Below, piece after piece: positions 34,701-64,000 of a stretch of DNA of 64,000 nt; the first letter of the stretch is position 1, and every line of letters begins with the position of its first letter. Position numbers and translations under genes: made by a program. The stretch comes from Balanoglossus misakiensis. Lineage: Eukaryota > Animalia > Hemichordata. Location: positions 4,694,831 through 4,758,830 of the forward strand of contig CM082578.2 of NCBI GenBank assembly GCA_040954595.2, read 5' to 3'. A model generated the notes under the pieces. The model was not told where the DNA came from and made no database searches. It worked only from the letters and a program-made list of their open reading frames with translations.

Positions 34701-37700
34701 TGATCTCATAAAGTGTAGATTTTTTTGTGATCAGCTGACCATATCAGTAGCTATTGGAGTTTGAAATGATTTGACAAGATCTGATTTGATTTCAGAGCAA
34801 CAGTGATTCTACAGACGTTGTATCTGACGACCATGTTAGTATTACAGGATCTATGATTGGAACAACGTTCAGTAGACGTATACTGATACCAGGTAAAAAT
34901 CCCATTCTTATTATATCATATTACCTGAGTTCATCATGATGTATTCAGTGTGACATATCAAGCCATTTCCTTTGTTTAACCCTTTCACCCCCACTTCCAT
35001 CTTTAGAGGTCCAACTTAACCTTAGAAAACAATGGGATTGGACTGAACCACGGTGGTGAAAGGGTTAATGTGGCAGAAATCGCGAGATTCAGTCTTCTCT
35101 GAATTTTTGCCACTCACCTAGGGTGGTAAAACCTATTTATGTTTAATAGCTAGAGTGTCAGCAAGCAAATTTTGATGTCATTGTTTTTGTTACTTTTGAT
35201 TGGGGCTCCTTATCTATATCTTTGCATTCAACATTATGAAATTTGTCGAACAGATGCGAAACTTATTTTCTTTGCTTTGCCAGGGCAATCCTACACGCTT
35301 GGACAACGACAAGGAGACCACTTCCTACGACCTCCGTACGGAAATTATTTCCAAGAACCGGGAGAAACGTTTCCATTTACGACTGAGATGTACCCCCTAA
35401 CACAGTCACAATTCCATCACCCAAATCTGGACGTGCTTCCGGGCTTTGGGAATACTGTTATGACAACTGCTCAGGTTCAAAGGTCGGAAGGTGATAGCAC
35501 ACCTGTTCAAAGGTCATCCGCTGATCATTTGGAAGAGGAAAGGTCAGATGTCAATAGTTCACAAGTGCAGAGGTCAGGGGTCGTTGATAGGTCACAGGTT
35601 ATGTCATCGGTGGATTTTCAGCATGTTCAAGAACAGAGGCATGGTGACAGAGCAGGAAATGCTGAGAGAGATTTTGTGGCTAGAGAGAGAGATTCGAGAG
35701 ATGAGAGCGCTACAACGAACGGTGTGAGGAGTTCAAGAAACCGTGGACGAAATGAGCGAAATATGCAAACGAGACATGTACCAACCAATGAAAACATCAG
35801 TATCTCAAGACCGCACGCGCCCCCTCAGCCACTCATCAGCTTTCCTGGGTATCACCAGTGTCTTGATGATGAGCGTGGAAGATCGATTCACGTTCGCCAG
35901 ACTGTCCCCGGAACAAGACGAGGAAGCGGCGGTCGCGCTGCTGCCACCAGTGGTCAAAGACAGACAGGATCGAGCAGTAGACATCAACATCACACGAGTC
36001 TCATGACGGAAAGCTACATCCCGGCGTATGACGGCGGTTTGATATCAGTGTACACAATACCAGGCAGTCGGGACATGTTCGTGAATTTGCGCGACGTGCC
36101 ATCGATTCCACCTGCGTACACGTACTCATGCGACTTTGCGCCAACGTACGTTTCATCATACACTGACCAGCCACCTCCATACACGCCAGTTATGAACGCA
36201 GACAATAGAGAGCAGTTGTCGTCACAGTCACACGGAAACTCACCAAATTCTAGTGCCTTGCCTTTGCTGGACAGTGTACGTCACATGTCAGGTCAGAGTT
36301 TGCAAAACACAGCACGTGAAGCGCCCTCACAGGCGTGTGCCATACAAGACGTTCCCATTACAGCCATTGATGTGGACCACGATGCAATAACTACGATAAC
36401 AGAAACTTCCAATGAACTCAGAACTTTATCAGAAACAAGCGACAGACATACACACGATGTACCTGTAACTCTCATTGACGAAATACCCACCTCAGAATAA
36501 TTGTGACATTTCCAGGAAAGATTAACCCTTTCACCACTATGATTTTAATTGTTTAAAGCTGCCCACAATGTGTGTATTTACACGACTTCAGCTTTGGAAG
36601 TTTGTTGACGTTCGTTTATCAAATAATTTGTGAATGATAGAAGGAAAATAAATATGAACATTCAAACTGAATTTAAATTTTATTTATGAGGACCAACAGA
36701 AAGTATACTGCAAAAGAGAATTTTTAGCCCGATAGGCTTGTGCCCCTATTGGTATTGTTGGAATTTTTAGGGCCCAAGCGCGCACAAGCGCTTGGGCCCT
36801 ATTGGTTTCGTTGGAATTTTTTAGGGCCCAAGCGCATACCAGCGCTTGGGCCCTATTGGTTTCGTTGGGGTTTTTCTTTCTTTAGGGCCCAAGCGCATAC
36901 CAGCGCTTGGGCCCTATTGGTTTCGTTGGGGTTTTTCAGTCTTTCTTTCTTTCCTTCTTTATTCTTGGTTCCATTTTTCGGCCACCTAAATCTCAAAAAC
37001 TGCAGCACCAACCAGGCTGAAACTTGGTAGGCAGATAGGGGCCAATGAGTAGATGTGCAGTGGCTTGTGAATATTTAATTAGTCACGTGACCTGGCGGCC
37101 ATATTGGATTTTCTGAAAAAATGCAAATCTCAGATCTCAGAAACTACAAGTCAGATTGACTTCAAATTTGGTGTGCAGCTAGTATACCTTATGCCCATCA
37201 TTTTTGTAATTGGATATTATGCTGTCAATGTTGCAGTTTTTTTGCTACAGTTGTTTTTCTGAAATCTGGTCAAATTTTCAAAAATCTTCTTCTCCAGAAC
37301 CGGCGATAACCGAGTCACGTCATGTGGGGTATGTGGTCACCTAACTGATGTCTATCAAGTTTGCGAAGATCATTGTGATTGGTCGAAGATTATGGCGGCC
37401 ATATTGGATTTTCGAAAAACCATAGCAAAACTTCAAAAATCTTCTTCTCCAGAACGGGCGATAACCGAGTCACAAGATTTGGTGTGTGTGGTCATTAAAC
37501 AGATGTCTATCAAGTTTGCGAAGGGGAATGTGATTGGTCGGAGATTATGGCGGCCATATTGGATTTTGTGAAAATCGATTAAAAAGTAAAAATTCCCTTT
37601 CTAGCCTAAACATTGATAGCACAGAAATTCTTTTTATGGATATGAATCATCATATGACAAGAATTAGCTATAAATATTTTGGTAATTTTGGCAATGACCT

Positions 37701-61000: not shown

Positions 61001-64000
61001 CTACTTAACACTATATCAGCACCAAATATAGTTATAACCTTGATATTTCATGGGATAAACACAGCATTATGTTTCTTCTCATTAATTATGTGCATATCTA
61101 ATATCAGATCAGATAATAGAGCTTGGGCCCGGACAATGCTGCTTGCAGCTTTAATTCTTTCTTTCTTTCTTTCTTTATTCTCCTGTCAATTCTTCGGCCA
61201 ACTAAATCTCAGAAACTACTGCAGGTACACTGCTCAAACTTGCTACAGTGGTCAAGGTCAATGAGTAGATGTGCAGTGATTTGTGAATACTTAATTAGTC
61301 ACGTGACTTGGCGGCCATATTGGATTTTCTGAAAAAATGCAAATCTCAGATCTCAGAAACTACAAGTCAGATCGACTTCAAATTTGGCATGCAGGTAGAC
61401 TACCTTCTACTCATCATTTTTGTAATTGGAAATTTTGCTGTCAATGTTGCAGTTTTTTTGCTACAATTTTTTTTCTGAAATCTGGCTTAAATTTCAAAAA
61501 TCTTCTTCTCCAGAACCGGTGATAACCGAGACACGCGGTTTAGGGTATGTGGTCACCTAACTGATGTCTATCAAGTTTGCGAAGATCATTGTGATTGGTC
61601 GAAGATTATGGCGGCCATATTGGATTTTCGAAAAACCATAGTTAAACTCCAAAAATCTTCTTCTCCAGAACGGGCGATGACTAAGTCGCAAGATTCGGGG
61701 AGTATGGTCACTACACTGATGTCTATCATGTTTGCAAAGAGCATTGTGATTGGTCAAAGATTATGGCGGCCATATTGGATTTTGTAAAAAGCAGCGAAAA
61801 ATTGAAAATCCTTTTTCTAGTCTAAAAATTGATAGCATACAAATTCTTTTTACGGATATCAATCGTCATGTGACTAAAATATGTTACAATTTTTTGGCGA
61901 TTTTTCACATGACCTTTGACCTACCTATCACGCGTTATTATTTCTGCATATCTAATTCCAGGCTAACCTATAGGGCTAGACGTTTGGTTTTTGATGAATG
62001 TGGATTAGTGTGTGATCAAAATATTTTGCTACTTTTCATGACCCCTTTGACCTCTGCTGACCTCATTAATTATGTGCATAGCTAATTACAGGCGCACCGA
62101 TAGAGCTAGAGGTTTGGTTTTTGTTGGACATGGACCAGTATGGGATCACCATTTTTTGCCAAAATGTTGGGTGACCTCTGGTGACCTTTGACCTACTTTC
62201 GCATATCTCAGCATCCAGAGCAGATACAGCCATGGCATTTGGTAGGATGGGACCAAAATGTAAAGCCACATTTTTGGGTCACCTGTAACACCTGCTGACC
62301 TCATTAAATATGCACATACCTAATTACAGGCGAACCAATAGAGCTAGAGTTTTGGTTTTTGTTGGACATGGACCAGTATGGGTAAAAAAAATTGCCCAAA
62401 TGTTGGGTGACCTCAGGTGACCTTTGACCTACTTCACCCTATTTCAGCAGCAAAAATACACACATCCTTGTTATGTCATGAGATAATACATCCGATAGAA
62501 AATTCTGTTTCTTCTCATTCATACTGTGCATATATAATTCAAGATCAGCGCTTGGGCCCGACAATGCTGCTCGCAGCTTTAATTCTTTCTTTCTTTCTTT
62601 CTTTCTTTATTCTTGTGTCAATTCTTCGGCCAACGAGATCTCTGAAACTACTGCAGGTACACTTCTCAAACTTGCTACAGTGGTCAAGGTCAATGAGTAG
62701 ATGTGCAGTGACTTGTGAATACTTAATTAGTCACGTGACCTGGCGGCCATATTGGATTTTCTGAAAAAATTCAAATCTCAGATCTCAGAAACTACAAGTC
62801 AGATCGACTTCAAATTTGGCATGCAGGTAGACTACCTTCTACCCATCATTTTTGTAATTGGAAATTTTGCTACAGTGTTGCAGTTTTTTGCTACAATTTT
62901 TTTTCTGAAATCTGGCTTAAATTTCAAAAATCTTCTTCTCCAGAACCGGTGATAACCGAGACACGGGGTTTGGGGTATGTGGTCACCTAACTGATGTCTA
63001 TCAAGTTTGCGAAGATCATTGTGATTGGTCGAAGATTATGGCGGCCATATTGGATTTTCGAAAAACCATAGTTAAACTGCAAAAATGTTCTTCTCCAGAA
63101 CGGGCAATGACTGAGTCGCAAGATTCGAGGAGTATGGTCACTACACTGATGTCTATCAAGTTTGCAAAGAGCATTGTGATTGGTCGAAGATTATGGCGGC
63201 CATATTGGATTTTGTAAAAAGCAGTGAAAAATTGAAATTCCTTTTTCTAGTCTAAAAATTGATAGCATACAAATTCTTTTTATGGATATCAATCGTCATG
63301 TGACTAAAATATGTTACAATTTTTTGGCGATTTTTCACATGACCTTTGACCTACTTATCACGCGTTATTATTTCTGCATATCTAATTCCAGGCTAACCTA
63401 TAGGGCTAGACGTTTGGTTTTTGATGAATGTGGATTAGTGTGTGATCAAAATATTTTGCTACTTTTCATGACCCCTTTGACCTCTGCTGACCTCATTAAT
63501 TATGTGCATAGCTAATTACAGGCGAACCAATAGAGCTAGAGGTTTGGTTTTTGTTGGACATAGACCAGTATGGGATCAAAATTTTTTGCCCAAATGTTGG
63601 GTGACCTCTGGTGACCTTTGACCTACTTTCGCATATCTCAGCATCCAGAGCAGATACAGCCATGGCATTTGGTAGGATGGGACCATAATGTAAAGCCACA
63701 TTTTTGGGTCACCTGTGACACCTGCTGACCTCATTAAATATGCACATACCTAATTACAGGCGAACCAATAGAGCTAGAGTTTTGGTTTTTGTTGGACATG
63801 GACCAGTATGGGTCAAAAAAAATTGCCCAAATGTTGGGTGACCTCAGGTGACCTTTGACCTACTTCACCCTATTTAAGCAGCAAAAATACACACGTCCTT
63901 GTTATGTCATGAGATAATACATCCGATAGAAAATTCTGTTTCTTCTCATTCATACTGTGCATATATAATTCAAGATCAGCGCTTGGGCCCGACAATGCTG
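49060..64000 (+). mobile_element. Nested cluster 2 of Helentron/HINE-like elements (continues beyond the window)
   Basis: Heads at 49060, 49112, 49181, 49261, 49314, 49384, 51963, 52023, 53520, 54994, 57902, 59404, 59457, 59510, 59563, 59616, 59669. Bodies end at ~50570, 51960, 53520, 54994, 56479, 57902, 59396, 61156, 62584 and just past 64000. Confidence 0.8.

What the first reader, a model, noticed from the sequence alone, without database searches (positions are those of the whole stretch)
36724..64000. Apparent satellite is a self-targeting Russian-doll stack of Helentron/HINE-like elements whose heads and bodies pair last-in-first-out
Seen in sequence: runs of ~53-bp hairpin heads are followed by runs of headless ~1.4-kb bodies, and subtypes match like nested brackets. 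(a) The outermost head at 36724 has the variant arm GCTTGTGCCCC, and only the last body (43789-44994) ends in GCTTGTGCCCC. (b) Excising the inserts joins GGAATTTTT + CTTTATT (42628) + ATTATTATTC (43789), reproducing the uninterrupted junction GGAATTTTTCTTTATTATTATT at ~49160. (c) Head 36822 joined to the second body (38372-39791) rebuilds the intact element at 57902-59396. (d) Two heads ending GGTATTATCCTGG (49314, 49384) are followed by exactly two bodies of a distinct type ending GCAGCTATAT. (e) Heads ending GGAATTTTT go with TTCGGCCAAC-type bodies (intact at 54994; split at 36768/39792 and 59457-59616/61157, 62585). Established: Helentron-associated HINE/DINE-1 elements have subterminal IRs, a 5' palindrome, a microsatellite and a 3' stem-loop, insert at T-runs and leave no TSD. 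Inference: at least three subfamilies repeatedly target the T-run/microsatellite behind their own 5' hairpin. The array would then grow by nested insertion rather than unequal crossover, and its order would record relative insertion time.
Basis: partly seen in the sequence, partly recalled or inferred. Interest (0 to 1): 0.88.

Follow-up and report, generated by a model that had tools for sequence, protein, structure and literature searches.

The report
Transposons stacked behind their own hairpins
What looks like a satellite array is two piles of small non-coding transposons with Helentron/Helitron2-type ends whose front ends and bodies pair up like nested brackets, likely because each new copy landed in the T-rich stretch just behind an earlier copy's front hairpin; self-insertion of this group was already proposed in fungi, but intact stacks like these make its target choice testable.

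Summary
Mostly confirmed. 36725-64000 holds two stacks, split by a 4-kb unrelated spacer: 22 hairpin heads and 16 bodies of 1.1-1.5-kb non-coding elements with Helitron2/HINE-type ends, all on one strand. All 20 inner heads sit in the T-rich linker behind a resident head, which holds about 6.5% of T-sites. Split heads match their last-in-first-out bodies in 6 of 7 pairs (5 of 840 permutations reach that), or 7 of 7 if one head was lost. One split copy rebuilds an intact copy at 1475/1481 bases.

Corrections: block 1 has one body too many, some bodies are recombinant, and sibling copies give only a partial insertion order. An age test was inconclusive. The same junction types occur in contigs of this organism and in related elements from other hosts (16 of 70 tails).

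Not tested: sequence past 64000, long reads, the autonomous partner. Self-insertion near the 5' end was proposed for Fusarium FoHeli. This scan has already noted such stacks on other pieces of this genome and in other genomes. Verdict: new variant of a known kind.

The parts
36725..44993 (+). Stack 1: 5 heads and 6 bodies, closed on both sides by unrelated DNA at T-runs
36725..36768 (+). Outermost E head (TGT arm); left arm missing, loop reverse-complemented relative to head 49061
36769..36822 (+). C head (GGAATTTTT linker), pairs with body 39792-41209
36823..36882 (+). A head, pairs with body 38372-39791
   Evidence: 1475/1481 identical to 57903-59394
36883..38371 (+). Intact A1 element (innermost), 1489 bp; body 97.8% to the A1 body of 59669-61155
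38372..39791 (+). Headless A body; 99.6% to the body of 57902-59395
39792..41209 (+). Headless C body
41210..42626 (+). Second headless C body without a head of its class (orphan); 97.3% to the previous body
42634..43787 (+). Intact short As element (ACGGG head), in the (ATT)n linker of the E element
43788..44993 (+). E body with TGT 3' inverted repeat; closes head 36725
49060..64000 (+). Stack 2: 17 heads and 10 bodies, runs off the window with 7 heads open
49060..49383 (+). Head run: E (49060), E' (49112), As (49181), A (49261), D (49314)
49384..50570 (+). Intact D element (tail GCAGCTATA)
50571..51960 (+). Headless D body, closes head 49314
51962..52022 (+). A head, closed by body 56479-57901
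52023..56478 (+). Three sibling intact elements at one T-run: A (52023), A/C mosaic (53520), C (54994)
56479..57901 (+). Headless A body
57902..59395 (+). Intact A element, 1494 bp; reference anatomy: 5' T, 14-bp-stem hairpin, (CTTT)n linker, two 155-bp internal repeats, 3' inverted repeat, GCTGC-TT-GCAGC stem-loop, TTTAAT end
59404..59668 (+). Head run: one A-like head and four identical 53-bp C heads
59669..61155 (+). Intact A1 element (innermost)
61156..64000 (+). Two headless C-start bodies sharing one C/A/C mosaic pattern (97.6% identical); the second is cut by the window end

Best explanation
These are non-coding elements with Helitron2/HINE-type ends, nested inside each other at the T-rich linker 22-50 bases behind a resident copy's 5' hairpin, likely because a Rep/helicase supplied in trans inserted new copies there again and again. 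Shown: the anatomy, the junction position, head-body matching and the net addition of two T per element. Inferred: each insertion pushes the host's body 1.1-1.5 kb away, keeps the host's hairpin plus T-run, and brings a fresh linker, so targets multiply and stacks grow by preferential attachment. Also inferred, at about even odds: the site is chosen because the enzyme binds the resident GCTTGGGCCC arm and cuts a T-run roughly as far downstream as at a true 3' end (9 of 14 head-to-head junctions at 22-23 nt; direct tail-to-head junctions at 25-26 nt). Later loss of one 53-bp head and A/C recombination blur the record, which is a partial order, not a full timeline.
For: 20 of 20 inner heads lie in linkers, in the same orientation; linkers hold 6.5% of TT, TTT or T5 sites of the 8 intact copies. 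Class match is 6 of 7 under a strict stack (5/840 permutations) and 7 of 7 with one orphan (3/840). Without labels, 6 of 6 split heads with an intact reference have, among their nearest intact heads (ties included), the element whose body start is nearest to their stacked body. The split A copy rebuilds an intact copy at 1475/1481. Removing two T per element restores the uninterrupted run at 6 of 8 closed sites. The G-to-T arm change is shared by E heads and the E tail. Contigs of this organism show tail-to-head joints and a tail-linker-E-body joint with a linker unlike this locus. In related elements from other hosts, 11 of 70 tails run into a head and 5 of 70 into a headless body.
Against: Block 1 is unbalanced. 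Both two-T misses involve D elements. Four identical heads could come from slippage or from multi-head composites rather than four insertions. The age proxy gave 4 for, 2 against and 2 ties. The 20 events are not independent. No autonomous partner, no empty flank site and no long read were seen. The 22-23-nt spacing is also simply where the first T-run lies, so it does not separate hairpin recruitment from T-run preference. One related locus (L023) has an element in opposite orientation at a linker.
Confidence: 0.84

Rival explanations
1. Heads and bodies expanded separately as tandem repeats: 53-bp heads by slippage and 1.4-kb bodies by unequal crossover, the reader's 'apparent satellite'.
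For: Four identical adjacent heads; adjacent bodies 97.3% and 97.6% alike; an orphan body; mosaic bodies.
Against: Adjacent heads and bodies often belong to classes only about 80-87% alike, in mirror order. The most similar pair of bodies (99.6%) lies 20 kb apart, and the head and linker match too. The two adjacent C bodies differ at 44 alignment columns spread along their length, older than the 7-difference A pair, so they are not a recent local duplication.
Confidence: 0.06
2. Nesting is real, but many surplus heads and orphan bodies come from composite moves as proposed for FoHeli: the enzyme starts at an outer head and stops at the first tail, carrying several heads with one body. Brackets would then not close downstream.
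For: Multiple short 5' termini on one body in Fusarium (PMC5148889, sections 10 and 16) and two left termini in Xenopus HelenXT233 (PMC11417382 passages). Four identical heads at 59457-59668 and an orphan body in block 1.
Against: In closed block 1 every head has a body of its class, and the surplus is a body, not a head.
Confidence: 0.25
3. Targeting is passive. The linker is simply the best T-rich substrate for a T|T-inserting enzyme, and the hairpin plays no part.
For: HINEs and Helitron2 prefer T-rich sites (PMC4067079, PMC3627910 passages). Both outer flank sites are T5 runs. 52 of 70 tails in other hosts run into DNA not recognised as element.
Against: Bodies carry 4-12 T5 runs and 1-12 A5 runs each, including GAATTTT and GGTTTTT motifs like the linker sites, and none is used. 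All inner copies face one way.
Confidence: 0.35
4. The block is an assembly mosaic of collapsed repeats.
For: No contig spans either stack, and no long reads were available. The orphan body could reflect a collapsed 53-bp head.
Against: Copies are distinct (every A/C body has private substitutions, 1-32). Mis-joins would not give class-matched nesting or whole-unit microsatellite arithmetic. The junction types exist in contigs built without this assembly.
Confidence: 0.03

Closest known systems
HINE / DINE-1 non-autonomous Helentrons (Thomas et al. 2014, PMC4067079, passages read; oyster Cg_HINE, PMC7492417, passages read)
   Same: Subterminal inverted repeat with a 5' partner forming a hairpin, microsatellite, central repeats, 3' stem-loop, T-rich insertion site, no clear duplication, no coding capacity.
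   Different: The passages read describe dispersed copies, clustering and tandem arrays. None describes a hot spot in the element's own microsatellite or bracket-matched stacks; 'nested' occurs 0 times in the Cg_HINE main text.
Helitron2 / HLE2 (Bao and Jurka 2013, PMC3627910; HELIANO, PMC11417382; passages read)
   Same: 5' T, 8-15-bp asymmetric inverted repeats, 5' hairpin, 3' repeat 20-30 bp from the end ahead of a hairpin, compensatory changes in the repeats, insertion in T-runs. Xenopus HelenXT233 has two left termini in direct repeat.
   Different: No Rep/helicase partner was seen here, so Helentron versus Helitron2 cannot be told. The passages read do not report deep stacks.
FoHeli self-insertion in Fusarium oxysporum (Chellapan et al. 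2016, PMC5148889; abstract, passages, sections 10 and 16 read)
   Same: Helitron2-type elements with repeated short 5' termini (31-85 bp), explained by insertion of one copy near the 5' end of another.
   Different: There the extra heads sit on one body and nesting is mostly inferred. Here the displaced bodies survive and match their heads, several subfamilies share the site, and the open-head depth reaches 10.
Classical satellite DNA and rolling-circle Helitron concatemers
   Same: Long block of similar 1.4-kb units in one orientation.
   Different: Units are not head-to-tail copies of one monomer: neighbours differ by up to about 20%, 8 of 16 bodies are headless, and heads are stacked apart.

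Membership tests
Helitron2/HLE2 non-autonomous (HINE, DINE-1-like) | 5' terminal T with an 8-15-bp inverted repeat 0-2 bp from the end | tested here: met
   T-AGGGCCCAAGC; the T pairs in the stem in A, C, D, E, E' and As heads; 10-12 bp match the 3' repeat
Helitron2/HLE2 non-autonomous (HINE, DINE-1-like) | 5' hairpin formed by the repeat and its downstream partner | tested here: met
   Stems of 14 bp or more, -17.8 to -20.7 kcal/mol as DNA, in 6 of 7 heads folded; truncated head 36726 gives -3.6
Helitron2/HLE2 non-autonomous (HINE, DINE-1-like) | 3' repeat 20-30 bp from the end, ahead of a short stem-loop | tested here: met
   Repeat ends about 24-25 bases before the terminal T, then GCTGC-TT-GCAGC; the predicted fold is weak, -2.6 to -3.7 kcal/mol
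Helitron2/HLE2 non-autonomous (HINE, DINE-1-like) | Microsatellite behind the 5' hairpin and central tandem repeats | tested here: met
   (CTTT)n, (ATT)n or (CTT)n/T-run linkers of 40-62 bp; 155-, 156- and 238-bp internal repeats
Helitron2/HLE2 non-autonomous (HINE, DINE-1-like) | Insertion in T-runs without target-site duplication | tested here: met
   All 22 heads are preceded by 2-6 T. Intact copies serve as empty sites: net +2 T at 6 of 8 closed sites. Two tails have one T then C, which excludes a strict TT duplication; a 1-bp T duplication cannot be excluded
Helitron2/HLE2 non-autonomous (HINE, DINE-1-like) | No coding capacity | tested here: met
   4 stop-to-stop frames of 80 aa or more in 5 representative units, plus one over the heads: 0 of 5 hit Pfam at E 0.1; no Rfam hit
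Helitron2/HLE2 non-autonomous (HINE, DINE-1-like) | Interspersed, high-copy family | tested here: met
   Summed contig depth about 1e5-2.6e6 over bodies against tens on single-copy pieces; not a copy number
Helentron (as distinct from Helitron2) | Autonomous partner with Rep/helicase plus endonuclease sharing these termini | not testable with these tools
   No genome held; no such ORF in the window. Two unchecked notes of this scan report an intact enzyme gene in stacks elsewhere in this genome
FoHeli-type self-insertion | Several short 5' termini in direct repeat arising from insertion near the 5' end | tested here: met
   14 head-to-head junctions, 22-50 nt behind the arm
FoHeli-type self-insertion | Multi-head composite transposed as one unit to new loci | not testable with these tools
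   Needs genome-wide copies with flanks
Classical satellite DNA | Head-to-tail array of one monomer family | tested here: not met
   No single period; mirror-ordered classes; neighbours 81-98% alike

The most novel reading that the evidence does not exclude
HLE2 elements carry their own attachment site. The right arm of the 5' hairpin plus a T-run about 22-26 bases on mimics the element's 3' end, recruits the Rep/helicase and is regenerated by each insertion, so satellite-like blocks grow by self-targeted transposition across animal lineages. The reverse-complemented loop of head 36726 would further hint at a flip/flop hairpin-transfer step in their replication.
Probability: 0.3. Interest if true: 0.75.

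Novelty: new variant of a known kind. Interest (0 to 1): 0.5.

Why it matters
How rolling-circle transposons choose and join a target is poorly known beyond a T|T or A|T preference. A hot spot inside the element, used 20 of 20 times here and seen in related elements of other hosts, gives a defined substrate to test (hairpin, spacing, T-run). It also offers a route to long repeat blocks that is neither unequal crossover nor concatemer rolling, and nesting orders subfamilies in time without a clock, though only partially. In practice, annotation tools would split such blocks into false satellites and orphan fragments. Stack 1 begins about 70 bases behind an AATAAA that follows a long reading frame, so these piles can form next to genes.

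Tried and rejected
No whole genome was held, so the downstream prediction, genome-wide bracket parsing and the search for the autonomous partner could not be run. The look-up of sequencing runs gave 3 contig-only runs of one sample, possibly the assembly's own source: no long reads and no second individual. Laying contigs on an intact A element gave no information on head junctions because the tool skipped the repeat-bearing front part; the 15 of 44 joints shown were internal skips. The tail pattern found 0 matches in viral contigs. A sequence look-up of earlier findings and a 'near' look-up returned nothing. The age test by private substitutions was inconclusive (4 for, 2 against, 2 ties among 8 host-guest pairs, one of which assumes the lost head) and depends on which relatives happen to be in the window. 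Rejected: retroposon or structured RNA (no Rfam hit, no variable-length duplication); a TT target duplication (two tails with a single T); rolling-circle concatemers for the sibling run 52023-56478 (bodies only 85-92% alike); a recent local duplication for the orphan C body (44 differences). In the other-host loci no post-tail sequence matched a body interior (18 of 70 had any hit), but the body library was incomplete (median 304 shared bases per tail), so this is weak. I did not identify the host taxon.
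Full report
Setting. The window is intron-bearing eukaryotic DNA: split RRM and ABC-transporter exons hit Pfam in 3 of 6 frames scanned. No genome was held, and I did not identify the taxon. The repeat family occurs only in 36725-44993 and from 49060 to the window end; four query units gave no hit outside these blocks. The 4,066 bases between them are unrelated DNA with other small repeats.

Anatomy. There are 22 heads and 16 bodies (15 complete tails, one cut at 64000), all on the + strand. An intact copy (8 present, 1154-1497 bp) reads: 5' T, a hairpin with a stem of 14 bp or more whose arms carry GGGCCCAAGC/GCTTGGGCCC, a 40-62-bp T-rich linker, a body with 155-238-bp internal repeats, the 3' GCTTGGGCCC repeat, a GCTGC-TT-GCAGC stem-loop and TTTAAT. 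This fits the Helitron2 definition of Bao and Jurka (PMC3627910, passages) and the HINE/DINE-1 layout (PMC4067079 and PMC7492417, passages). No frame hit Pfam (0 of 5) and nothing hit Rfam. Bodies fall into A, C, D and E classes: A versus C about 85%, D and E about 80-84% to the others over aligned columns. The class names are mine.

Do the brackets match? Eight bodies are headless. A strict last-in-first-out parse pairs 7 of them with heads, and 6 of 7 match in class; 5 of 840 distinct label orders do as well. The miss arises because block 1 has 5 heads and 6 bodies. Allowing one orphan in any block-1 slot gives 7 of 7, reached by 3 of 840 orders. I defined the classes after seeing the sequences, so I added a label-free check. 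For the 6 split heads that have an intact reference, the set of nearest intact heads (ties included) always contains the element whose body start is nearest to the stacked body. The E pair has no intact reference; it rests on the G-to-T arm change shared by E heads and the one E tail. The cleanest case is head 36823 with body 38372-39790, which matches the intact copy at 57903-59394 in 1475 of 1481 columns. It also keeps that copy's irregular CTT unit in the linker once two T are removed. Removing two T per inserted element restores the uninterrupted run at 6 of 8 closed internal sites; both misses involve D elements. Two further sites fit only if a lost C head is assumed.

Is the site targeted? 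All 20 inner heads sit in a host linker: 14 directly behind a head (22-50 nt past the arm, 9 of them at 22-23 nt) and 6 behind a tail that itself lies in a linker (25-34 nt past the 3' repeat). Linkers hold 6.5% of the TT, TTT or T5 sites in the 8 intact copies, counting both strands of the bodies (154/2368, 69/1049, 9/139). Even 10 independent events would give about 1e-12. The events are not strictly independent, but body T-runs, including look-alike GAATTTT and GGTTTTT motifs, are never used.

Beyond this locus. Contigs from three runs of one sample, possibly the assembly's own source, show tail-to-E-head joints (depth 282 and 1259), a tail-to-As-head joint (258), and a tail-linker-E-body joint with a linker unlike this locus (1434). 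Single-copy pieces have depths of about 14-35 in X1 and 21-115 in X2 (15 of 110 joints shown; depth is not copy number). No contig spans a stack. A tail pattern scan of metagenome contigs gave 72 matches in 70 loci. I dropped L002 and L003, which look bacterial by inspection. The rest share only the last 30-40 bases with this family and are related elements of other hosts; they resemble fish elements from my recall, which I did not test. Of 70 tails, 11 run into a head, 5 into a linker plus headless body, 52 into other DNA, and 2 are too short. L004 and L036 show head-to-head junctions. L053 and L062 may be one locus in two assemblies. L023 has an element in the opposite orientation at a linker.

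Against a clean record. One C body has no head. It differs from its neighbour at 44 evenly spread columns, while the A copy nested inside differs from its twin at 7, so loss of a 53-bp head (real or in assembly) or removal of a multi-head composite is more likely than recent body duplication (inference). Three bodies are A/C mosaics, two with shared breakpoints, so recombination has acted and at least one recombinant has been copied. Siblings at one T-run cannot be ordered. Private substitutions fell from host to guest in 4 of 8 pairs, rose in 2 and tied in 2. The four identical heads at 59457-59668 may be four insertions, slippage or a composite. Seven heads remain open at 64000, and the test of their closure could not be run.

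Mechanism. Shown: nesting geometry, hot spot and T arithmetic. From established knowledge: HLE2 elements move by a Rep/helicase and insert at T|T without duplication. Inferred: a trans-acting enzyme inserts whole copies into the linker; hairpin plus T-run survive and each guest adds a new linker, so large stacks attract more copies. Speculative, at about even odds: the resident arm recruits the enzyme, because arm plus 22-26 nt plus T-run resembles the true 3' end. The rival is passive preference for the T-rich linker. One more lead: bases 36726-36747 are the exact reverse complement of 49061-49082, so that E head carries a flipped loop and lacks its left arm. It is a single case; the parallel with parvovirus flip/flop hairpins is recalled.

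What is known. Chellapan et al. (PMC5148889; abstract, passages, sections 10 and 16) report Fusarium Helitron2 copies with repeated 31-85-bp 5' termini and propose self-insertion. HELIANO reports two left termini in a Xenopus HLE2 (PMC11417382, passages). A Xenopus Helitron paper describes tandem arrays but not this pattern (PMC12001565, passages). Seven library searches turned up no description of deep, class-matched stacks in an animal HINE's own microsatellite. Most hits were seen only as listings, subscription journals and Repbase are not covered, and I read no supplements; FoHeli Table S6 and Figure S11 may bear on this. This scan's own unchecked notes report the same pattern on at least seven other pieces of this genome and in other genomes. 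They are not independent evidence and did not set my score.

Verdict. The feature is real and the core reading holds: nested self-insertion of HINE-type elements at a site each copy carries (0.84). It is a new variant of a known kind, interest 0.5. It would be higher (0.75) if hairpin-guided targeting were shown.

Noticed in passing
window 36726-36747 vs 49061-49082: The truncated outer E head is the exact reverse complement of the first 22 bases of the other E head: the loop is flipped and the left arm lost. Single case.
   Followed up: partly
window 47610-48114: About 505-bp element with 19-bp terminal inverted repeats starting AGG, flanked by TTAA on both sides and high in contig depth. Kolobok-like by recall.
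   Followed up: no
window 46923-47007: Short palindromic element starting CAGTG and flanked by TA; Tc1/mariner-type miniature by recall.
   Followed up: no
window 46413-46599: Repeat that also occurs at 8126-8489 (as an inverted pair) and 24840-24955, with very high contig depth.
   Followed up: no
window 45334-45439 and 45859-46015: A 106-bp palindromic repeat, and a stretch 82% like 31783-31925.
   Followed up: no
window 35154-36500: 448-aa stop-to-stop frame with no Pfam hit, probably a last exon; AATAAA at 36647, and stack 1 begins about 70 bases further on.
   Followed up: partly
window 459-7167 (-) and 14907-15389 (-): Exons with RRM, acidic and RGG stretches (nucleolin-like by recall) and an ABC-transporter exon.
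   Followed up: partly
window 38389-39786 vs 57992-59390: Two bodies in different stacks, 20 kb apart, are 99.6% identical; possible local copying, not distinguishable from a young genome-wide subfamily.
   Followed up: partly
window 36970-37055 and 59756-59840: The first 85 bases of A1 bodies are closer to the E body (18 differences) than the C start is (30), so A1 looks like another mosaic subfamily.
   Followed up: partly
L023 (around 1270-1350) and L054: In other hosts: one element in opposite orientation at a head's linker, and one tail followed by an inverted tail-like sequence.
   Followed up: partly
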